A stretch of 64,000 nt of DNA from Rubrobacteraceae bacterium (GCA_965213905.1 OZ243922.1:2226230-2290229), one strand, 5' to 3'. Counted from the first letter of the stretch, positions 45,106 through 51,042 are shown. Made by a program: numbers and translations. The notes: generated by a model not told the origin, from the letters alone.

Positions 45106-45346
45106 GATCAGCGTCTCAATCCCAGGGCGGCCGGTAAGATGATTAATCTAGAGGTCAAAAGCTCGTGCTCCGTCTTATATCGTGTATTTCGCAACATTGC
45201 CTTCCTGCCGCGACAACTTATAGTTTAAGCGGAACGCCCCGGGTTACCAAGCATTTCTTTCACCCAATAATTTCGGATAGCCGTTTACGTTCGGCTACCA
45301 AAAACGTGGACCGGGTTTTCGGGCCAAAGAAAATTGCCTAAAGGAG

Positions 45347-45419
45347 TGGACCCGACGAGACTCGAACTCGTGGCCTCTGCCATGCGAAGGCAGCGCTCTC
45401 CCAACTGAGCTACGGGCCC
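45347..45419 (-). tRNA. tRNA-Ala (CGC)
   Basis: The reverse complement folds as GGGCCCG...CGGGTCC-A with the G3:U70 identity pair and anticodon arm CTGCC-TTCGCAT-GGCAG. 73 nt. Confidence 0.9.
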
Positions 45420-45477: not shown

Positions 45478-45521
45478 GTGGGCGATGCTGGTTTCGAACC
45501 AGCGACCTCTGCCGTGTGAAG
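45478..45521. repeat. displaced tRNA-Val 3'-half copy (att site)
   Basis: 44/44 identical to 50970-51013. There is no tRNA 5' half next to it. It lies 58 bp from tRNA-Ala. Confidence 0.9.
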
Positions 45522-45571
45522 TCTGCCCGCGACATTCTACCACGTACTACTGCGTCCCAAAATTATGCTGT

Positions 45572-45656
45572 TTTGCAGGTATTTTGTAAAATTAGTGATG
45601 GCAGTATGTCCGCCGCGTACGCGCCTGTACCAGCCGGGTTGCAGTACGGTTGCAGT
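45572..45656. repeat. arm-type repeat cluster, left end of islet
   Basis: TTTGCAGGTATTT (45572-45584) and GTTGCAGTACGGTTGCAGT (45638-45656). Both recur at the right end. Confidence 0.6.
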
Positions 45657-45714
45657 AACTTTCCGGCTCCGCAAAGTAGCGAGTGTACAACAAAAATGAT
45701 GTATACTAAGTTGG

Positions 45715-46164
45715 ATGATACTGCGGTTCACTGAGGAAGGGCTGCTCCCTCCGGGCGTTCACCAGACGGATCTGGGGGAACTCAAGGAGAATATGGGTTG
45801 GAGTCGCAGGAGGCGAGAGTTGCTCGAAGGGCTGGAAGATGTCCTTGGGTTGATGACGTACTGCGGCGTGGCGAGGGTCTACTTCGACGGGAGCTTCGTA
45901 ACTGATAAGGACCGTCCAAACGACATAGACGGTTGCTACGATTTGTCGGAGGACGTTACCTCGGAGGACCTCAAGCGGTTGGCTCCAATCTTTCCACCGA
46001 GTCCGGCCAATCGGACAGAGGCCAAGAGGCGTTTCGGCGTCGACCTCTTCCCGGCCGCGGCCACGGAGCTAGGATTTGGACAGCCTTTCCTGCGATTCTT
46101 CCAGACAGATCGAGAAGGCCGCGAGCGTGGTGTGCTCTCAGTGGAACTGCAAGTGGGGAGGTGA
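45715..46164 (+). CDS. minimal Pol-beta-fold nucleotidyltransferase (candidate toxin)
   Basis: 149 aa. NTase signature FDGSFVTDKDRPNDIDG (GS ... DxD). TATACT -10 box ends 7 nt before the ATG, so the mRNA is probably leaderless. Confidence 0.65.
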   Translation: MILRFTEEGLLPPGVHQTDLGELKENMGWSRRRRELLEGLEDVLGLMTYCGVARVYFDGSFVTDKDRPNDIDGCYDLSEDVTSEDLKRLAPIFPPSPANRTEAKRRFGVDLFPAAATELGFGQPFLRFFQTDREGRERGVLSVELQVGR

Positions 46165-46168
46165 AGGT

Positions 46169-46627
46169 ATGATCCGCAACGATAAGGAATATCGGCAAAG
46201 CAAGAAACGGCTCTCGGAGCTTGAGACGGAGTCGCAGGGGCTCTCATCACGTAGCCATTCGGCACAGCGGGACGAGGTAGTCTCAGCAGTGATCGACGCA
46301 CTGCGGATCCAGATCGAGGATATGCAGCGCGAGATCTCCGAATACGAGGATCTGAAGGAAGGGCGTCTCCTTTCCTTTGGCGCCGACGATCTAGACTCCC
46401 TCGGGGAACTGATAGTCAAAGCGCGCATTGCCGGGGGGCTCACGCAGGCCGAGCTCGGCGAACTGCTCGGCATGACCCAGCAGCAGGTGGCGCGCTACGA
46501 GCGGGACGGTTGGCAGAAGATCAGCTTGTGGCGTCTGGCCGAAGCCGCCGACGCTTTAGGGCTAGATCTGAATGTCCGTGCCCGACTCCCTGCTTCTAGC
46601 CATGTAAGGTCGGCTGGCGTCGGTTAG
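46169..46627 (+). CDS. HigA-like XRE-family HTH protein (candidate antitoxin/regulator)
   Basis: ATG 46169 with GGAGG 7 nt upstream, 4 nt after the NTase stop. N-terminal IRNDKEYRQSKKRLSEL helix and C-terminal HTH GLTQAELGELLGMTQQQVARYE. Confidence 0.7.
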   Translation: MIRNDKEYRQSKKRLSELETESQGLSSRSHSAQRDEVVSAVIDALRIQIEDMQREISEYEDLKEGRLLSFGADDLDSLGELIVKARIAGGLTQAELGELLGMTQQQVARYERDGWQKISLWRLAEAADALGLDLNVRARLPASSHVRSAGVG

Positions 46628-46751
46628 CGATGAAAGCACCGTCGGTAGCTCTATGCGCACCCGGAATTCGACGACTCTTCGGATTCCGGTACGCAAGTGG
46701 CGCGATACACCGTAGCATCCATGTAGTCACAAACGAACTCGAGAGGACTAC

Positions 46752-46949
46752 ATGAACGAACAGCAGTACGAGTGGCTGAAGGTGCCGGAAGTGGCAGAAG
46801 AGCTTCGGATAGCGTGCAGCCGCGCCTACGAGTTGGTTGCGGACGGCGAGATCCCGGCCGTCAAGATCGGTCGCAGTGTCCGGGTAAGTCGGAAGGAGCT
46901 CGACCGGTGGCTCGAAGACCAACGCTATCTGGATGTCGTCCGGGGCTAG
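46752..46949 (+). CDS. excisionase-family (HTH_17/MerR-like) DNA-binding protein
   Basis: 65 aa. WLKVPEVAEELRIACSRAYELVADGEIPAVKIGRSVRVSRKELDRWL, the typical Xis/AlpA-type fold pattern. Confidence 0.75.
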   Translation: MNEQQYEWLKVPEVAEELRIACSRAYELVADGEIPAVKIGRSVRVSRKELDRWLEDQRYLDVVRG

Positions 46950-46997
46950 GATCTTTCGGGCAGCACGGATGCCGGTGCTTACACCCGTCCGTTCTCA

Positions 46998-47720
46998 CTA
47001 CTCGACACGCAAACCAAGAAGGGTGGCCGCTTCCACGAGGCCTTGGTCCCGGGCTTGGATCGGCTCTGCCACCTCACCGGGCTCGTGACGCATCCGGTCG
47101 TGGAAGACAGCCCACAACTCCCATCCAGGGTTGAGACGCGAAAGGTAGCAGATACCTGCAAAGATGGGCCGTCCCGTATCGTCGGTCTGCTCATAGACGT
47201 ATCTCGCCACTTCCTGCGTCAGACGGCGATGCGGACCGGTCACCGCGCTCAGGTCTATGTCCTCTAAGCCAGGCTCTCCTACTACCGCTGCCAACTCTCT
47301 CCGCAAGACACGCATCGTCTCCGGAGCAGGGAGGTCGGCGAAGAGCAGGTCCGGCGCCAAACGGGTCGAGCCTACGCGACGGCTCAGACGCCATTCCTCG
47401 GGGACCACGCCCCCTTCGAGCTCCGGATCCAGGGCCTCATCATCCTCGACCGCTTCCAGTCCCGCGAGCAAACCCACGCTCGGCCTGAAGCGCGCAATGG
47501 TTTCCCCGAACGCCCCGGCCCGCTCGGTAGCGCAGTACACAATTCGGTAACGCTCACTCTCCGGCAGACCATGTTCCGCAGAAGGATCATCAAAGCGATT
47601 CCCGAAGGTCCCATCCTCCAGCGCGTAGGCCCAGTCCGGTGGGGCGAAGGCGTCGAAGCCTCTGCCCACCCGGTAGACCGTCTCCGGCGGCCTTACGTCC
47701 GGCAGCGGTGCGTCAACCAC
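46998..47720 (-). CDS. RES-domain toxin (NAD+ phosphorylase/ADP-ribosyltransferase family)
   Basis: R-E-S triad context: GNRFDDP, YCATERAGAFGE, ICYLSRLNPGWELWAVF. 8-bp overlap with the upstream antitoxin gene. Confidence 0.8.
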   Translation of the reverse strand: MVDAPLPDVRPPETVYRVGRGFDAFAPPDWAYALEDGTFGNRFDDPSAEHGLPESERYRIVYCATERAGAFGETIARFRPSVGLLAGLEAVEDDEALDPELEGGVVPEEWRLSRRVGSTRLAPDLLFADLPAPETMRVLRRELAAVVGEPGLEDIDLSAVTGPHRRLTQEVARYVYEQTDDTGRPIFAGICYLSRLNPGWELWAVFHDRMRHEPGEVAEPIQARDQGLVEAATLLGLRVE

Positions 47721-48084
47721 CGGCCACGAAGGCGCGGGCCGCGGCCTTGGCTTCCCTCAACTTGCCCTCGTGGATCGCCTCTGCGGGAGAGACGTCGTCG
47801 AGCTGGGGATTCAACCCGATGAACCAGGCCTTCACGATCCTCGGTGAATCAAACTGCACGAGCAGTTGGGAGATCTCATACGCCGTGCGAAGACGCTCCT
47901 CGCTCTCCTGGCGCACCGCCTCCACCTCACCACCGGACCAGCGCGAAACCGTCTTGGCATCCTTCACCCCCGCTACATAAGCCACCAGACGACGCCCCAA
48001 AAGGTCCTGCAGAAAAGAAGCCACATCCGGAACCGCCGTAACCACCGATTGCCGATGCGCTTGTTCCAGAACCCGCGCTTCCAT
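47713..48084 (-). CDS. Xre/MbcA/ParS-type antitoxin (DUF2384-like)
   Basis: C-terminal pattern WFIGLNPQLDDVSPAEAIHEG. AAGGAGG RBS. Position immediately upstream of the RES gene. Confidence 0.75.
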   Translation of the reverse strand: MEARVLEQAHRQSVVTAVPDVASFLQDLLGRRLVAYVAGVKDAKTVSRWSGGEVEAVRQESEERLRTAYEISQLLVQFDSPRIVKAWFIGLNPQLDDVSPAEAIHEGKLREAKAAARAFVAGG

Positions 48085-48138
48085 CTCGTGCCTCCTTGGT
48101 GCCAGTATGCTAGCTCAATGCCCTATAAATGTCCTTTT

Positions 48139-48147
48139 ATTGTACCA
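48139..48147 (-). promoter_or_regulatory. extended -10 (TGGTACAAT) for the Xre-RES operon
   Basis: The minus strand reads TGGTACAAT, about 55 nt upstream of ATG 48084. Confidence 0.4.
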
Positions 48148-48216
48148 CTTTGATTTCAGGGCTTTCGGTACTCGGGCTTGTGGTGAATTACTCCGTTCGG
48201 CTTGCTGGTGCAAGCT

Positions 48217-48465
48217 CTAGCAGGAAGCGTATTCGAGGTCGTCGGCGAAGTCTTCTTCGGAGAGATCGGGGTAGGGAAGACCATGTCCCGTGTACCAGCG
48301 TATTGCCGAGACCCGGCCCTTGAGACCCAGGATCTCCCCGGCGCGGGCCACGCTCATCTTCCCCTCGCTCACCAAGAGCAGCAATACTCCTTCGAGCACC
48401 TCACGCTTGGGCTCTGGTCCCAGCGCCTCTACAACCTCGGCGGGCAACTCTACTCTCATGTCCAT
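48217..48465 (-). CDS. UPF0175-family antitoxin-like protein (orphan)
   Basis: 82 aa. VELPAEVVEAL...EGVLLLLVSEGKMSVARAGEILGL...EEDFADDLEY, the typical UPF0175 pattern. No PIN/DUF3368-type partner downstream. Confidence 0.7.
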   Translation of the reverse strand: MDMRVELPAEVVEALGPEPKREVLEGVLLLLVSEGKMSVARAGEILGLKGRVSAIRWYTGHGLPYPDLSEEDFADDLEYASC

Positions 48466-48560
48466 AACACTAGTTTATCCTCCCACAGCGCTCGCCGTTG
48501 CTCTGATCCAAGAAAAGAGCCCTCAGCCCAATTCCAGAGCACGGGATTGTGCGACCGAAT

Positions 48561-49589
48561 CTAAAGCCAGCCCTCTGGAACCTCGAACTCGGCTATTACG
48601 GGCGCGTGGTCGCTCTCTGGGTATTTCACGTCGGTGGCGAAGGAGATCGACTCGTCGTGCAATAGCTCGTTGTGGATCTCTGACTCCTCGAAATACTGGA
48701 GCATCTGTCGGCTGACTATAAGGTGGTCTATCATCTCGCCCTTTCCCAGGTACAGCAGTGAATACCGGGCGGGCTCGGGGATGCTCTTATCCACCGGCAC
48801 CATGACCCGCTCAGCCAGTTCCGGGTTGCCGTGGCTCTCTACATCTCCCCGTATCGCCTGCAAGGGCACGTCGTCGGTGTCGGCGTTGAAGTCTCCGCAG
48901 GCAACGATCAAAGCCCGCTCGTCCTCGTCGAAGATCCCGTCTATCAGCATCCTGGTCTCCAGAGCCTGCCCAACCCGCTTCATCGAAGAGAGGAAGAACC
49001 CTTCTGCCCACCCCGAAGCCGTCTTCCAGGTATAGCGATCCGCTTTCTGCTCCGGAATGTTCGTCGGCCTCTTGGATTTCAGGTGGACATTGAGGACGTG
49101 GAGGATCTGTCCGCCCAACCGGATCTTGCAAGCCAATATCGGCCTCTCCCAGCTTATCTTCTCGGCCTCCTCCCTGAGCAGCGCTTCATCTACTTCGGCG
49201 CCGGAGTCTTTATCAGTAACGGTGCGATAGTAGGGTGCGGGAGCGTAGGCGTGCTTGTGTTGGGCGTAATCGGCTATCTCGAAGCGGCTCAGAACTACCA
49301 GGTTGCGCTCGTCGTAGGGTTCGCTACCGTCCGTCAGCTTTGTAGAGACCATTTCGTAATCCGCGTACTGTGTATCTTCCAGCAACTTCTCCAGGGCCGA
49401 CAAACGTCGGGGAGCGCCTTCACGCTCCCTCTGCCCGTTGACCTCCTGCAGGCAGAGAATATCGGCGTCCACCCGCACCAGTTGGGGCCGCATCAGGGAA
49501 ATCCTCTCTTCAAGGGAGGGCCCACCTTCCTCCGAGGTTTCGTCGAGGTTCTCCAGGTTAAAGGTGGCGATACGCAGTGTCGGCGACAT
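48561..49589 (-). CDS. endonuclease/exonuclease/phosphatase (EEP, DNase I-like) family protein
   Basis: EEP motifs FNLENL, LCLQEV, NVHLKS, CGDFN and SDHAPV. ATG 49589 follows GAGGAGGA. The track start 49622 adds 11 aa. Confidence 0.8.
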   Translation of the reverse strand: MSPTLRIATFNLENLDETSEEGGPSLEERISLMRPQLVRVDADILCLQEVNGQREREGAPRRLSALEKLLEDTQYADYEMVSTKLTDGSEPYDERNLVVLSRFEIADYAQHKHAYAPAPYYRTVTDKDSGAEVDEALLREEAEKISWERPILACKIRLGGQILHVLNVHLKSKRPTNIPEQKADRYTWKTASGWAEGFFLSSMKRVGQALETRMLIDGIFDEDERALIVACGDFNADTDDVPLQAIRGDVESHGNPELAERVMVPVDKSIPEPARYSLLYLGKGEMIDHLIVSRQMLQYFEESEIHNELLHDESISFATDVKYPESDHAPVIAEFEVPEGWL

Positions 49590-49815
49590 AGCTATCCTCC
49601 TCGTGGTTTGACCGTAACACAATCATAGCCGTAGCCTCCAGATACCGGCGCTAAAGCGTGTCTCCGCCGGTCCTTTTGGGACGGCCCCAGCACGTGCGCG
49701 AAAACCTTCCCCAAGATCAGAGAGAGCCTGCGTCGGAACTGGTTGACTGACGCCAGCGCCCGCGAAGAGCAGTATTACGTTGGTGTGATGCAGCGGTAGC
49801 CGCTAATATGTCTGA

Positions 49816-50796
49816 GTGTCTGCTGGAGACTCCATAGAAAACTACATTCGGCTCTTTGCCAGCTTGAACACTGATAAGAGCGCGAGCAGGTGGCCTGACC
49901 GCACGAGAAATCGAGCTCCGCAGAAACCTCTATTGTTGCTCTCGGTCCTGGATCTTTTCGAGCTTGGCGAGGTCAGTTCAAACCTCATCGAGATCACCGA
50001 AGATCTCCTGGACCTTTTCGACAACTACTGGGTGAGAGCCCTGCCGTTTAGGAAACCGAGCACCCTTGCCATGCCGTTCGTCCGTCTGGAGAACGATGGC
50101 TTCTGGCAAATAGCCCGCCGTGTGGAAGGCGAGTCACTCCCTGGTAGTCCCGAAAAATCCGTAGCGCAACTACAAGGGCGAGTTTTCGGTGCCTGCCTTG
50201 ACGAGTCTCTATATCAATTTCTTCAAGCAAAGGAGAATCGCAAGCTCCTTCGTTCCGTTCTCGTAAGCGACAGGTACTTCTCGAACGAAGCCAGAGAAAG
50301 CCTCCTGCAGCAAGGTTTCGTAAACAAAGAGGCTTTTATGTACAGCAAAGAGCTTCTCAAGAATCCTAAGGATCCGAAGGTTGGGGAAGCACTATCTCTG
50401 GAAGAAGAGTACGTGCCGGTCCGGGATCAGGGTTTTCGGCGAGCAGTCGTCAAAGCCTACGATCACCGCTGCGCCCTGTGCAGCATCCGCGTCCGCACCC
50501 TTGATGGTCATACCCTTGTGGAAGCGGCACACATTGTTCCCTGGAGTGAGACCCGAGATGATCGGCCCGTAAACGGCCTTGCCCTCTGCCGCACGTGCCA
50601 CTGGACGTTCGACGAAAGGTTGCTGAGCGTCTCCCGAGACTACATTGTTGTGACCTCGAAGCAGTTGAACGTGCCGGACAACCTCTCAGGCTACCTGACG
50701 AGTCTCGAAGGACGAACGATCTTCGTACCCTCCCAAGAATCGTACCGACCCGACCGCGGCTCTCTGGAGTGGCACAGGAAACACCTCCTGCTCTGA
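49816..50796 (+). CDS. HNH_2-type endonuclease with N-terminal DNA-sensor-like domain (type IV restriction-like)
   Basis: C-terminal YDHRCALCS...VEAAHIVPW...NGLALCRTCHWTFD. N-terminal RAPQKPLLLLSVLDL...DNYW...PFVRLENDGFWQI. AT-richer than the host. Confidence 0.75.
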   Translation: MSAGDSIENYIRLFASLNTDKSASRWPDRTRNRAPQKPLLLLSVLDLFELGEVSSNLIEITEDLLDLFDNYWVRALPFRKPSTLAMPFVRLENDGFWQIARRVEGESLPGSPEKSVAQLQGRVFGACLDESLYQFLQAKENRKLLRSVLVSDRYFSNEARESLLQQGFVNKEAFMYSKELLKNPKDPKVGEALSLEEEYVPVRDQGFRRAVVKAYDHRCALCSIRVRTLDGHTLVEAAHIVPWSETRDDRPVNGLALCRTCHWTFDERLLSVSRDYIVVTSKQLNVPDNLSGYLTSLEGRTIFVPSQESYRPDRGSLEWHRKHLLL

Positions 50797-50888
50797 GCTT
50801 ATCCTGCTCTCCGGCCTTGCCTCCCGGCCCGCAGGAAAAGGCCGCGAAAGCCCTAGAGGAAGCACTGCAATAATCCTCAACAAATCGC

Positions 50889-50965
50889 GTTGTAGTACGG
50901 TTGCAGTGAAAAGCCCCCGGCCCGGAAACCGGGGGCTTTATTTTCCCTGCTATTTGCAGGTATTT
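50889..50965. repeat. arm-type repeat cluster, right end of islet
   Basis: GTTGTAGTACGGTTGCAGT (50889-50907, 18/19 match to the left copy) and TTTGCAGGTATTT (50953-50965, 13/13). Confidence 0.6.
50911..50946 (+). terminator. bidirectional rho-independent terminator
   Basis: AAGCCCCCGG / CCGGGGGCTT stem with loop CCCGGAAA. TTTATTTT follows on the plus strand and TTTTCAC on the minus strand (downstream of tRNA-Val). Confidence 0.75.
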
Positions 50966-50967
50966 CT

Positions 50968-51042
50968 TGGTGGGCGATGCTGGTTTCGAACCAGCGACCT
51001 CTGCCGTGTGAAGGCAGCGCTCTCCCGCTGAGCTAATCGCCC
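50968..51042 (-). tRNA. tRNA-Val (CAC), CCA encoded
   Basis: Reverse complement GGGCGAT-TA-GCTC..GAGC-G-CTGCC-TTCACAC-GGCAG-AGGTC-GCTGG-TTCGAAA-CCAGC-ATCGCCC-A-CCA. 75 nt. Confidence 0.9.
50970..51013. repeat. att copy inside intact tRNA-Val
   Basis: Identical to 45478-45521. Confidence 0.9.

What the first reader, a model, noticed from the sequence alone, without database searches (positions are those of the whole stretch)
45478..51013. Integrase-less 5.5-kb islet in tRNA-Val bounded by perfect 44-bp att repeats
45478-45521 is 44/44 identical to 50970-51013. That stretch is tRNA-Val(CAC) from the last base pair of the anticodon stem to the first C of CCA. The intact tRNA sits at the right end. 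The displaced 3' half sits 58 bp from tRNA-Ala, so the ancestral locus was tRNA-Val followed directly by tRNA-Ala. The copy inside the functional tRNA continues as CCA, whereas the displaced copy continues as CAC. The interior is visibly AT-richer and encodes only addiction/nuclease-type genes plus an Xis-like HTH. No tyrosine or serine recombinase ORF or fragment is present in any frame. Perfect repeats imply a recent event, or an element still mobilised in trans (CIME-like). This is the only clearly accessory block in the window and the best place to look for an undescribed defence or addiction module.
Basis: partly seen in the sequence, partly recalled or inferred. Interest (0 to 1): 0.75.

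Follow-up and report, generated by a model that had tools for sequence, protein, structure and literature searches.

The report
Integrase-deleted defence islet in tRNA-Val
A 5.5-kb piece of foreign DNA sits in a valine tRNA gene of a Rubrobacter-family bacterium; it lost its own integration enzyme long ago but kept all its docking sequences and a helper gene, and it now carries only self-defence and addiction genes, which is a known kind of decayed mobile element.

Summary
45478-45521 and 50970-51013 are 44/44 identical. They are the 3' part of tRNA-Val(CAC). The intact tRNA is at the right end, and the displaced copy lies 58 bp from tRNA-Ala. Two related Rubrobacteraceae genomes have the empty site, with tRNA-Val and tRNA-Ala 50-57 bp apart.

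The islet is an integrase-deleted member of a widespread family of tyrosine-integrase elements that integrate into tRNA genes. Intact relatives read xis - int - stop - 15 nt - tandem GTTGCAGTA repeats - terminator hairpin - TTTGCAGGTA box - tRNA 3' end, and the same repeats recur in the other arm. The window keeps both arms, the hairpin, an excisionase gene under strong purifying selection (dN/dS 0.04) and the last ~13 codons of int (50832-50873). A 3.85-kb cassette occupies the place of int: a RES/MbcA-like toxin-antitoxin pair, an orphan UPF0175 gene, an EEP nuclease, and an SBD-HNH enzyme predicted to cut phosphorothioated DNA.

So "no recombinase fragment" is slightly wrong, but the CIME-like reading is supported. 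Variants in four other genomes are mosaic, so recombination at this site continues. Present-day mobilisation in trans is unproven.

Verdict: a new member of a known kind, of modest interest.

The parts
45346..45419 (-). tRNA-Ala(CGC). It is the neighbour of tRNA-Val in the empty ancestral site.
   Evidence: ARAGORN. In L006 and L030 it lies 57 and 50 bp after tRNA-Val.
45478..45521 (-). attL core: the displaced 3' part of tRNA-Val (tRNA positions 31-74), 44/44 identical to attR.
45522..45714 (+). P' arm, the non-coding left end of the element. It contains a conserved block, AATTATGCTGTTTTGCAGGTATTTT (TTTGCAGGTATTT at 45572-45584), and tandem arm repeats, GGTTGCAGTA at 45637-45646 and 45648-45657.
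   Evidence: Alignment A2 shows the same blocks at the same spacing in elements that target Val, Ala and other tRNAs.
45715..46164 (+). DUF6932 protein (nucleotidyltransferase-like), probable toxin or effector of a two-gene module.
   Evidence: PF22014 E 6e-34. PADLOC candidate PDC-M63A E 6e-14.
46169..46627 (+). 152-aa protein with a C-terminal Xre-type HTH, the probable antitoxin or regulator partner of DUF6932.
   Evidence: HTH_3 and HTH_31. Antitoxin-type HTH matches. A homologous HTH-Xis module is present in L164.
46752..46949 (+). Excisionase (Xis/RDF), 65 aa, intact and under purifying selection.
   Evidence: PF12728 E 2e-15. TIGR01764 E 9e-13, above its cutoff. dN/dS 0.04. In L092 its homologue (75% nucleotide identity over 166 nt) lies directly upstream of int.
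46998..47720 (-). RES-domain toxin.
   Evidence: PF08808 E 4e-9, above its cutoff.
47713..48084 (-). Antitoxin of the RES toxin. It lies upstream and overlaps the toxin gene by 8 nt. MbcA-like.
   Evidence: PDB 6fkg_C (MbcA) E 0.008 over residues 38-119. No Pfam hit.
48217..48465 (-). UPF0175-like antitoxin, orphan in this window. Its DUF3368/PIN partner is present in L017 and L167.
   Evidence: PF03683 E 6e-5, below its cutoff. Partner gene seen.
48561..49589 (-). Endonuclease/exonuclease/phosphatase (EEP) family nuclease, function unknown. It is the gene most conserved among the islet variants.
   Evidence: PF03372. Nucleotide identity 96.5-98.6% with L017 and L163, and protein identity 96% with the L167 gene. 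More than 3,500 homologue clusters across Bacteria and Archaea.
49816..50796 (+). SBD-HNH protein, predicted to be a type IV restriction endonuclease dependent on phosphorothioated DNA.
   Evidence: HNH_2 E 7e-12. NF045808 E 2e-41, 142 bits against a cutoff of 180. Sulfur-binding domain of PDB 8h0l E 3e-9.
50832..50873 (+). Remnant of the 3' end of the tyrosine integrase gene (QEKAAKALEEALQ*). Its upstream limit is uncertain and lies between 50823 and 50845.
   Evidence: Alignments A1 and A3. Integrase C-termini. L060 reads MQEKAAKALEEALR*. Caveat.
50888..50908 (+). P-arm tandem arm repeats, CGTTGTAGTA and GGTTGCAGTG, starting 14-15 nt after the int stop codon.
50910..50939 (+). Terminator hairpin of the former int gene (11-bp stem followed by a T-run).
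   Evidence: Present at the same place in int-bearing relatives.
50953..50965 (+). TTTGCAGGTATTT box of the P arm, 4 nt from the core.
50970..51013 (-). attR core, inside the functional tRNA-Val.
50968..51042 (-). Intact tRNA-Val(CAC).

Best explanation
The block is the decayed, integrase-deleted descendant of a lambda-like tyrosine-integrase element that integrated into the 3' half of tRNA-Val(CAC) in a Rubrobacteraceae chromosome. It splits an ancestral tRNA-Val/tRNA-Ala pair.

Intact members of the family are organised as P' arm - cargo - (HTH) - xis - int - P arm. Each arm carries tandem GTTGCAGTA repeats, probably the sites bound by the N-terminal domain of Int, and a TTTGCAGGTA box. The core is a copy of the tRNA 3' end, which rebuilds the gene after integration.

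In the window, int has been replaced by a 3.85-kb cassette of defence and addiction genes. Only its last ~13 codons, its terminator and the arm sites remain. The excisionase gene is intact.

The islet therefore cannot recombine on its own. It would excise or integrate only if a co-resident family member supplied an integrase with the same arm specificity and the tRNA-Val(CAC) core specificity. In that case strand exchange would occur in or next to the anticodon-loop end of the 44-bp core, directed by the islet's own Xis. This makes it a cis/trans-mobilisable element (CIME).

Shown: the anatomy, the empty sites, homology to int-bearing relatives, the int remnant, purifying selection on xis and cargo, and mosaic exchange between genomes.

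Inferred: the role of the repeats as Int-binding sites, the position of crossover, and any present-day mobility. I put present-day mobility at about 35%.
For: - The 44/44 repeat, the intact tRNA and the displaced half.
- Empty sites in L006 and L030.
- In L017 the functional tRNA-Val and the displaced fragment differ by one T-loop base. This is expected if the element supplied the new 3' half and crossover lay 5' of the T-loop.
- The arm motif was found in 3 viral and at least 120 metagenome contigs. Of 126 occurrences, 29 lie within 80 nt after the C-terminus of a homologous integrase. Of those, 22 are followed 67-97 nt later by a tRNA T-loop. A further 54 are preceded by a tRNA fragment.
- The integrases carry Phage_integrase and Phage_int_SAM_3 domains.
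- L092 shows HTH - xis - int - P arm - tRNA-Val(TAC). L060 shows an int C-terminus next to a tRNA-Val(CAC)-type core, and that C-terminus matches the window remnant at 12 of 13 residues.
- The P' arm blocks are conserved across elements with different tRNA targets.
- The reconstructed attP spacing between the two repeat pairs (about 240 nt) equals that of attP-like junctions in L082 (241 nt) and L069 (253 nt).
- Xis dN/dS is 0.04 and cargo dN/dS is 0.1-0.3.
- L162 is an intermediate: SBD-HNH followed by an int remnant of at least 100 codons.
- L168 is an intact relative with EEP, a LexA-like repressor, a prim-pol, Xis and Int.
Against: - No integrase of any kind occurs in the 64-kb window, and the rest of the genome is unknown.
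- In the sister genome (L163, flanks 98% identical) the attL core has 4 mismatches, one arm repeat unit is missing and the right end is rearranged next to an IS3. That copy is immobile.
- The family integrase next to the islet in L017 has different arm repeats (GGTAACTGT x2) and would probably not act on it.
- The int-less state is shared by islets separated by flank dS of about 1, so the element may have been inherited passively for a long time.
- The upstream limit of the int remnant is ambiguous, because 50797-50848 also aligns with sequence downstream of HNH in L162 and L163.
- The phylogeny used to place the empty-site genome rests on 355 nt and is effectively a trichotomy.
Confidence: 0.82

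Rival explanations
1. Inert fossil. The islet descends from the same element family but no longer moves at all. It is kept because its defence and addiction genes are useful or hard to lose. The perfect repeats reflect constraint on the copy inside the tRNA plus too little time, or gene conversion, for the displaced copy to drift.
For: The int-less junction is shared with L017 across flank dS of about 1. The sister copy L163 has decayed cis sites. There is no integrase in the window. Two or three TA modules would stabilise the block.
Against: - Xis is retained under dN/dS 0.04 in three int-less copies.
- The attL core, which has no tRNA function, is still perfect in the window, L017 and L167.
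- Both arms keep every conserved block.
- The left module (Xis, dS 0.55) was replaced after the split from a sister genome whose flanks differ at dS 0.04. The EEP segment (dS 0.06-0.12) was exchanged with a genome whose flanks differ at dS of about 1. DNA at this site is therefore still turning over.
Confidence: 0.5
2. Composite of two decayed elements. The left module (P' arm, DUF6932/HTH, Xis) and the right module (UPF0175, EEP, SBD-HNH, int remnant, P arm) come from two family members that sat in tandem at tRNA-Val. An internal deletion or recombination event fused them. This is compatible with the best explanation.
For: - The two modules differ sharply in divergence between the window and L163: Xis dS 0.55 and P' arm 76% identity, against EEP dS 0.04.
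- L164 has the two modules on opposite sides of a core (EEP - P arm - core - P' arm - MNT/HEPN - HTH - Xis).
- L034, L069, L074 and L082 also show P arm - core - P' arm junctions.
- The CIME literature describes accretion followed by decay (PMC5704250).
Against: No internal core remnant is visible in the window between Xis and UPF0175. The RES/antitoxin pair fills that interval. The same pattern could arise from homologous replacement of one end.
Confidence: 0.35
3. The islet is moved by one of its own nucleases (HNH or EEP) or by another non-canonical recombinase, and needs no tyrosine integrase.
For: It carries two nucleases and no integrase.
Against: The ends are classical attL and attR with arms homologous to int-bearing elements, plus an int remnant. 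The HNH protein is an SBD-HNH restriction enzyme type. EEP homologues occur without any att context.
Confidence: 0.02
4. Not an insertion: a local duplication of part of the tRNA gene, or an assembly artefact.
For: None beyond the repeat itself.
Against: The same islet lies at the same site in four independent assemblies (L163, L017 and L167, plus the junction in L164). Empty sites exist in two others.
Confidence: 0.01

Closest known systems
CIMEs (cis-mobilizable elements), e.g. those derived from ICESt1/ICESt3 in Streptococcus thermophilus. Definition taken from PMC5704250; the examples are from memory.
   Same: The element has lost its integration genes but retains attL and attR. It derives from an integrase-bearing element by deletion. 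Related elements are found in tandem (accretion), and copies are mosaic.
   Different: - The host is Rubrobacteraceae and the site is tRNA-Val, not the fda 3' end.
- It keeps an intact excisionase.
- Int was replaced by a defence/TA cassette, not simply deleted.
- No transfer functions are known for the parent family.
- Mobilisation has not been tested.
Lambda/L5-type heterobivalent tyrosine integrase systems that integrate into tRNA genes (mycobacteriophage L5 and pSAM2 are from memory; general features in PMC10865867).
   Same: The common core is the 3' part of a tRNA and rebuilds the gene. Pairs of repeated arm sites flank the core. A small excisionase is present, and int lies next to attP.
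   Different: Here int is missing. The arm repeat (GTTGCAGTA in tandem, period 11) and the TTTGCAGGTA box have not, to my knowledge, been described. Their binding proteins are only inferred.
SBD-HNH type IV restriction endonucleases (ScoMcrA/SprMcrA family; PMC6224610, PMC7461809).
   Same: The 326-aa protein has an N-terminal sulfur-binding domain and a C-terminal HNH_2 domain.
   Different: It scores below NCBI's curated cutoff for the family (142 bits against 180). It has no SRA domain. Its activity and sequence context are untested.
RES-Xre toxin-antitoxin systems such as MbcT/MbcA of M. tuberculosis (PDB 6fkg).
   Same: A RES-domain protein is preceded by a small overlapping gene whose product aligns with MbcA over nearly its full length.
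   Different: The antitoxin match is weak (E 0.008) and has no Pfam support. The RES protein has no PDB sequence match.

Membership tests
tRNA-integrated island made by a tyrosine integrase | Direct repeats equal to the 3' part of the target tRNA bound the element, with an intact tRNA at one end. | tested here: met
tRNA-integrated island made by a tyrosine integrase | Relatives have an unoccupied site. | tested here: met
   L006 and L030 have tRNA-Val and tRNA-Ala 57 and 50 bp apart.
tRNA-integrated island made by a tyrosine integrase | An integrase gene lies inside the element next to an att site. | tested here: not met
   Only a 3' remnant of about 13 codons at 50832-50873. No recombinase ORF.
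CIME (cis-mobilizable element) | attL and attR are retained. | tested here: met
   Perfect 44-bp cores plus complete P and P' arms.
CIME (cis-mobilizable element) | No integration or transfer genes. | tested here: met
   None of the eight genes is a recombinase, relaxase or transfer gene.
CIME (cis-mobilizable element) | Derived by decay from an integrase-bearing element. | tested here: met
   The int remnant, terminator and arms are homologous to int-bearing L002, L060, L092 and L168. L162 is an intermediate.
CIME (cis-mobilizable element) | Can be excised or transferred with the help of a related element. | not testable with these tools
   Only indirect evidence: mosaicism and tandem or attP-like junctions in other genomes.
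Lambda-like heterobivalent integrase att architecture | Repeated arm-type sites lie on both sides of the core. | tested here: met
   Tandem GTTGCAGTA repeats in both arms, family-wide. That Int binds them is inferred.
Lambda-like heterobivalent integrase att architecture | The integrase has an N-terminal arm-binding domain. | tested here: inconclusive
   Pfam finds the SAM-like and catalytic domains from about residue 66 onward. The first ~65 residues have no hit at E<0.01.
Lambda-like heterobivalent integrase att architecture | An excisionase/RDF is present. | tested here: met
   TIGR01764, 48 bits against a cutoff of 28.8.
SBD-HNH phosphorothioate-dependent restriction endonuclease | A sulfur-binding domain plus an HNH nuclease domain. 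| tested here: met
   PDB 8h0l E 3e-9 for residues 29-164. PF13391 for residues 219-272.
SBD-HNH phosphorothioate-dependent restriction endonuclease | Reaches the curated family score (NF045808). | tested here: not met
   142 bits against a cutoff of 180, E 2e-41. This fits a relative of the family, not a certified member.
RES-Xre (MbcTA-like) toxin-antitoxin | A RES-domain toxin with an upstream, overlapping Xre/MbcA-type antitoxin. | tested here: inconclusive
   RES is met. The genes overlap by 8 nt. The antitoxin matches MbcA only at E 0.008.

The most novel reading that the evidence does not exclude
The islet is not a fossil but a working integrase-less hitch-hiker. It keeps only the cis sites and its own excisionase, and it uses integrases of co-resident family members to excise and re-integrate. 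In this way it shuttles interchangeable defence and addiction cassettes among Rubrobacteraceae. In one variant (L167) a dnd phosphorothioation cluster sits where the window has an SBD-HNH phosphorothioate-dependent nuclease. If so, loss of int would be an adaptive, satellite-like strategy rather than decay. The conserved-arm, variable-core design of the family would explain how such islets retarget among tRNAs.
Probability: 0.25. Interest if true: 0.55.

Novelty: new member of a known kind. Interest (0 to 1): 0.35.

Why it matters
It adds a clear, well-delimited example of a CIME-type element in a little-studied actinobacterial lineage, the desert and radiation-tolerant Rubrobacteraceae. It shows step by step how an integrase gene is replaced by defence cargo: intact (L092, L168), half-deleted (L162), then a 13-codon stub (window).

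As a by-product it defines the att architecture of a large family of tRNA-targeting integrases seen in more than 120 metagenome contigs. That architecture is a practical signature for finding both active and decayed members.

The cargo itself is mostly of known types. The one lead is the very widespread, uncharacterised EEP nuclease. In these islets it sits next to either a phosphorothioate-writing system or a phosphorothioate-reading nuclease.

Tried and rejected
- **Exact-protein look-ups** for five window proteins found nothing: roadblock, the 70-aa ORF, the 214-aa ORF, HNH and Xis. The window's own genome is apparently not in that collection. Only the ABC permease matched, and it led to a sister genome.
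- **Extending the sister genome** did not reach a tRNA-Val or an integrase. It ran through an IS3 into inositol-catabolism genes. That copy is rearranged and could not serve as the hoped-for intact ancestor.
- **EEP and SBD-HNH as an obligate two-gene system.** I rejected this, because EEP occurs without SBD-HNH in L164, L166, L167 and L168.
- **The integrase beside tRNA-Ala in L017 as the trans-acting enzyme.** This is unlikely, because its arm repeats differ.
- **Placing the empty-site genome L006 in a phylogeny.** I tried this to prove excision or integration after int loss. The 355-nt tree is an unresolved trichotomy, so I do not rely on it.
- **A pasted six-frame Pfam scan of the islet.** I prepared it but did not run it. 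The eight annotated genes leave no gap above 226 bp, so no sizeable pseudogene can hide there.
- **Literature search** for the arm motif or for Rubrobacter islands gave nothing specific.

Full report
**1. Observation**

The two 44-nt stretches 45478-45521 and 50970-51013 are identical. They are the only long exact direct repeat in the window. ARAGORN calls an intact tRNA-Val(cac) at 50968-51042 and tRNA-Ala(cgc) at 45346-45419, both on the minus strand.

Read on the tRNA strand, the repeat runs from position 31 to the first C of the encoded CCA. Position 31 is the last base of the 5' half of the anticodon stem. The repeat covers the anticodon loop, the variable loop, the T arm, the 3' acceptor strand and the discriminator base. 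The displaced copy lies 58 bp from tRNA-Ala.

The interior is 58.3% GC against 62.0% for the rest of the window, lower than any other 5.4-kb stretch. Its third-codon GC is 0.63-0.77 against 0.80-0.85 in flanking genes.

**2. Gene content**

Eight ORFs fill the islet, with gaps of at most 226 bp:
- 45715-46164: DUF6932 (PF22014, E 6e-34), which also matches the PADLOC candidate PDC-M63A.
- 46169-46627: a 152-aa protein with a C-terminal Xre-type HTH.
- 46752-46949: a 65-aa excisionase (PF12728; TIGR01764, above its cutoff).
- 46998-47720: a RES-domain protein.
- 47713-48084: an overlapping upstream 123-aa gene whose product aligns with MbcA (6fkg_C, E 0.008).
- 48217-48465: a UPF0175-like protein.
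- 48561-49589: an EEP-family nuclease.
- 49816-50796: a 326-aa protein with a sulfur-binding domain (PDB 8h0l, E 3e-9) and an HNH_2 domain. It matches NCBI's model for phosphorothioated-DNA-binding restriction endonucleases at E 2e-41, below the curated cutoff.

All genes tested are under purifying selection, with dN/dS between 0.04 and 0.31.

**3. It is a real insertion**

A scan of one genome per species for the 44-mer returned 38 loci, nearly all Rubrobacteraceae.
- In L006 (OZ243953) and L030, tRNA-Val is followed directly by tRNA-Ala, with gaps of 57 and 50 bp. The junction aligns continuously with the window's attR-side tRNA and attL-side spacer.
- The same islet occurs between these tRNAs in L017 (OZ243918).
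- It also occurs in a sister genome, L001/L163, whose flanks are 98% identical to the window.
- A third copy is in L167.
- In L017 the functional tRNA-Val differs from the displaced fragment by one T-loop base. This is expected if the incoming element supplied the new 3' half and strand exchange lay 5' of the T-loop, at the anticodon-loop end of the core.
- Many other Rubrobacteraceae genomes carry displaced tRNA-Val halves with other flanks, so this tRNA is a hot spot.

**4. What family it belongs to, and the integrase remnant**

The contig L002 shows the following order:
1. a 377-aa tyrosine integrase, then its stop codon;
2. 15 nt;
3. GTTGCAGTACGGTTGCAGTAA;
4. a GC-rich hairpin;
5. TTTGCAGGA;
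6. the 3' end of tRNA-Ala.

The window has the same succession at 50873-50969, next to tRNA-Val. The 42 nt before it encode QEKAAKALEEALQ*. Family integrases end in ...LPDMQ(E/D)xAA(R/K)ALE(E/D)AL(R)*. L060 is an integrase next to a tRNA-Val(CAC)-type core and ends MQEKAAKALEEALR*.

A stub of int therefore survives, so the statement "no fragment in any frame" is not strictly right. The upstream limit of the stub is uncertain (50823-50845), because 50797-50848 also aligns with the sequence that follows the HNH gene in L162 and L163. L017 has the same stub with a further gap of 10-13 nt and the same CAATAA ending. The int-less state therefore predates the divergence of these two islets.

**5. 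The family is large and its att architecture is conserved**

Scanning for GTTGYAGTACGGTTGCAGT found 3 IMG/VR contigs and at least 120 metagenome contigs. Of 126 occurrences:
- 29 lie within 80 nt after the C-terminus of a homologue of the L002/L017 integrases. These homologues are 30-88% identical to them and carry the Phage_int_SAM_3 and Phage_integrase domains.
- 22 of those 29 are followed 67-97 nt later by a tRNA T-loop.
- 54 others are preceded within 220 nt by a tRNA fragment, which identifies them as P' arms.

The targets include Val(CAC), Val(TAC), Ala(CGC) and other tRNAs not identified here. Alignment of P' arms from elements with different targets shows two conserved blocks at fixed spacing:
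- AATTATGC.GTTTTGCAGGTATTTT, about 50 nt from the core;
- GGTTGCAGTACGGTTGCAGTA, about 115 nt from the core.

The window has both blocks intact. If the window's islet is circularised on paper, the two repeat pairs lie about 240 nt apart. This matches the attP-like junctions in L082 (241 nt) and L069/L074 (253 nt). I infer that the tandem repeats are arm-type Int sites. This follows the lambda/L5 paradigm, in which pairs of arm sites flank the core (PMC10865867). Binding was not tested.

**6. Where int used to be**

L092 shows HTH - xis - int - P arm - tRNA-Val(TAC). Its xis gene is 75% identical in nucleotide sequence to the window's and lies 100 nt upstream of int. In the window, xis (46752-46949) is instead followed by 3.85 kb holding the RES pair, UPF0175, EEP and SBD-HNH, and then by the int stub. 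The cassette therefore occupies the position of int.

Two relatives bracket this state.
- L162 is an intermediate: SBD-HNH, about 470 nt, then at least 100 codons of the int catalytic domain (HDFRHT...LGH...Y) and the arm repeats.
- L168 is an intact relative that carries EEP, a LexA-like repressor, a prim-pol/DUF3987 protein, Xis and a 376-aa integrase.

**7. Dynamics**

Synonymous divergence (dS) between the window and two other copies:

| Segment | Window vs sister genome L163 | Window vs L017 |
|---|---|---|
| Flanking genes | 0.03-0.04 | about 1.0 |
| EEP | 0.04 | 0.12 |
| UPF0175 | 0.09 | 0.055 |
| HNH | 0.18 | 0.59 |
| Xis | 0.55 | 2.0 |

- Against L163, the P' arm is only 76% identical. 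The TA module next to it also differs: MNT/HEPN in L163, DUF6932/HTH in the window. The left module was therefore replaced after these two genomes split.
- Against L017, the EEP and UPF0175 segment is far less diverged than the flanks. That segment was exchanged recently between distant lineages.
- Several contigs show P arm - core - P' arm junctions: L034, L164, L069, L074 and L082. These are tandem arrays or circular forms. This is the accretion pattern described for CIMEs (PMC5704250).
- The L163 copy has a degenerate core and a single arm repeat unit. Its right end runs through an IS3 into unrelated genes. That copy is dead.
- The family integrase lying just beyond tRNA-Ala in L017 has different arm repeats (GGTAACTGT x2). 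It is a poor candidate helper.

**8. Interpretation**

The islet meets the published definition of a CIME: no integration or transfer genes, with attL and attR retained. The origin from an int-bearing element is well supported. It rests on homologous arms, the terminator, the int stub and the intermediate in L162.

How it would work is inferred. A cognate Int supplied in trans would bind the GTTGCAGTA repeats and the tRNA-Val core. With the islet's own Xis, it would recombine the two 44-bp cores. That would release a 5.5-kb circle and restore the tRNA-Val/tRNA-Ala pair.

For continued function:
- the displaced core, which has no tRNA role, is still perfect in three genomes;
- all arm blocks are intact;
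- selection on xis is strong.

Against continued function:
- no integrase is seen in the window;
- the int-less state is old;
- a dead copy exists in the sister genome;
- TA modules alone could explain retention.

I put the origin at about 0.8-0.85 and present-day mobility at about 0.35.

**9. Comparison and novelty**

Decayed tRNA islands and CIMEs are known kinds. SBD-HNH enzymes and RES toxins are also known, from PMC6224610 and PMC7461809 and from the MbcA structure 6fkg. This is a new member of a known kind, in an under-studied lineage, with an unusually complete decay series.

The family-wide arm signature and the EEP nuclease are the parts that might repay further work. The EEP family has more than 3,500 homologue clusters across Bacteria and Archaea, about 60-68% identical among the 120 best-scoring listed outside Rubrobacteraceae. 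In these islets it sits next to either SBD-HNH or a dnd cluster. Interest is modest, at 0.35.

Noticed in passing
L040-L162 (viral and metagenome contigs); window 45637-45657 and 50888-50908: The 19-21-nt tandem repeat GTTGCAGTA-CG-GTTGCAGTA lies 3-15 nt after the stop codon of tyrosine integrases that are only 30-88% identical to one another. It is followed by a hairpin, a TTTGCAGGTA or TACCTGCAAA box (either orientation) and the 3' end of many different tRNAs. It recurs in the opposite arm. This constant-arm, variable-core att architecture is shared by a very broad integrase family, including AT-rich IMG/VR contigs.
   Followed up: partly
L167:2292-9053 (ENA ERZ25070591 ctg142212): In an islet variant whose EEP protein is 96% identical to the window's, the place of the SBD-HNH gene is taken by a small HTH gene and a dnd cluster (cysteine desulfurase, DndC-, DndD- and DndE-like). 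SBD-HNH is predicted to cut phosphorothioated DNA, whereas a dnd cluster writes that modification. A transposase and a GmrSD-type nuclease lie beyond.
   Followed up: partly
window 48561-49589: The EEP nuclease belongs to a ~330-aa family with more than 3,500 clusters. Members from Rubrobacteraceae, cyanobacteria, Deltaproteobacteria, Dehalobacter and Methanosarcina are 60-68% identical to the window protein. No characterised member or solved structure was found by sequence. Its genomic contexts differ, so it looks like a stand-alone, horizontally spread gene.
   Followed up: partly
L163:4279-12073 (sister genome, flanks 98% identical): The sister genome's copy of the islet has a 4-mismatch attL core, one arm repeat unit instead of two, and MNT/HEPN in place of DUF6932/HTH. 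It has no RES pair. To the right of HNH it has a LexA-like repressor, two family-specific hypothetical genes, an IS3 and then inositol-catabolism genes. No tRNA-Val lies within 12 kb.
   Followed up: partly
L017:5086-6320 and L002:2-1308: In two genomes a full-length family integrase sits immediately 3' of the neighbouring tRNA-Ala, so tRNA-Ala is a second target. The L002 element uses the same GTTGCAGTA arm repeats. The L017 one uses GGTAACTGT repeats. The anticodon stem-loops of tRNA-Ala(CGC) and tRNA-Val(CAC) differ at only 2 of 22 nt.
   Followed up: partly
L034:3672-3931; L164:2760-3016; L069:3068-3340; L082:2468-2735: These contigs show P arm - core - P' arm junctions, the attP configuration. 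They are either tandem arrays of family members or assembled circular forms. In L164 the EEP module and the HTH-Xis module lie on opposite sides of such a core.
   Followed up: partly
window 45562-45590 (- strand): A promoter-like site (TTTACA - 17 nt - CATAAT) lies in the P' arm and points outward toward the displaced tRNA half and tRNA-Ala. The -10-like ATTATG is nearly invariant in P' arms of the family, while the -35 is not. It could be an outward promoter that compensates for separating tRNA-Ala from the tRNA-Val promoter, or simply a protein-binding block.
   Followed up: no
L168:365-13872 (GCA_030147825): A probably intact relative of the element carries an SNase/YdjM protein, a prim-pol/DUF3987 replication protein, a 456-aa family-specific protein, a LexA-like repressor, EEP, Xis and a 376-aa integrase. 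This gives an idea of the backbone the window's islet lost.
   Followed up: partly
L008, L013, L039 (Gammaproteobacteria genomes/MAGs): Over the 76 nt compared, the tRNA-Val(CAC) sequence is 100% identical in Methylohalomonas lacus and in Gammaproteobacteria and Ectothiorhodospiraceae MAGs. It is 97-99% identical in L016 (Ectothiorhodospiraceae), L012 (Coriobacteriales) and L026 (Bacteroidaceae bin). This is either extreme tRNA conservation or contamination/transfer.
   Followed up: no
L011:3324-8000 (CBDCNI010000001): Another Rubrobacteraceae genome has a type I restriction-modification system (HsdR, HsdS) directly next to tRNA-Val, behind a partial P arm (GCAGGTATTTC). Defence cargo at this hot spot is therefore varied.
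   Followed up: no
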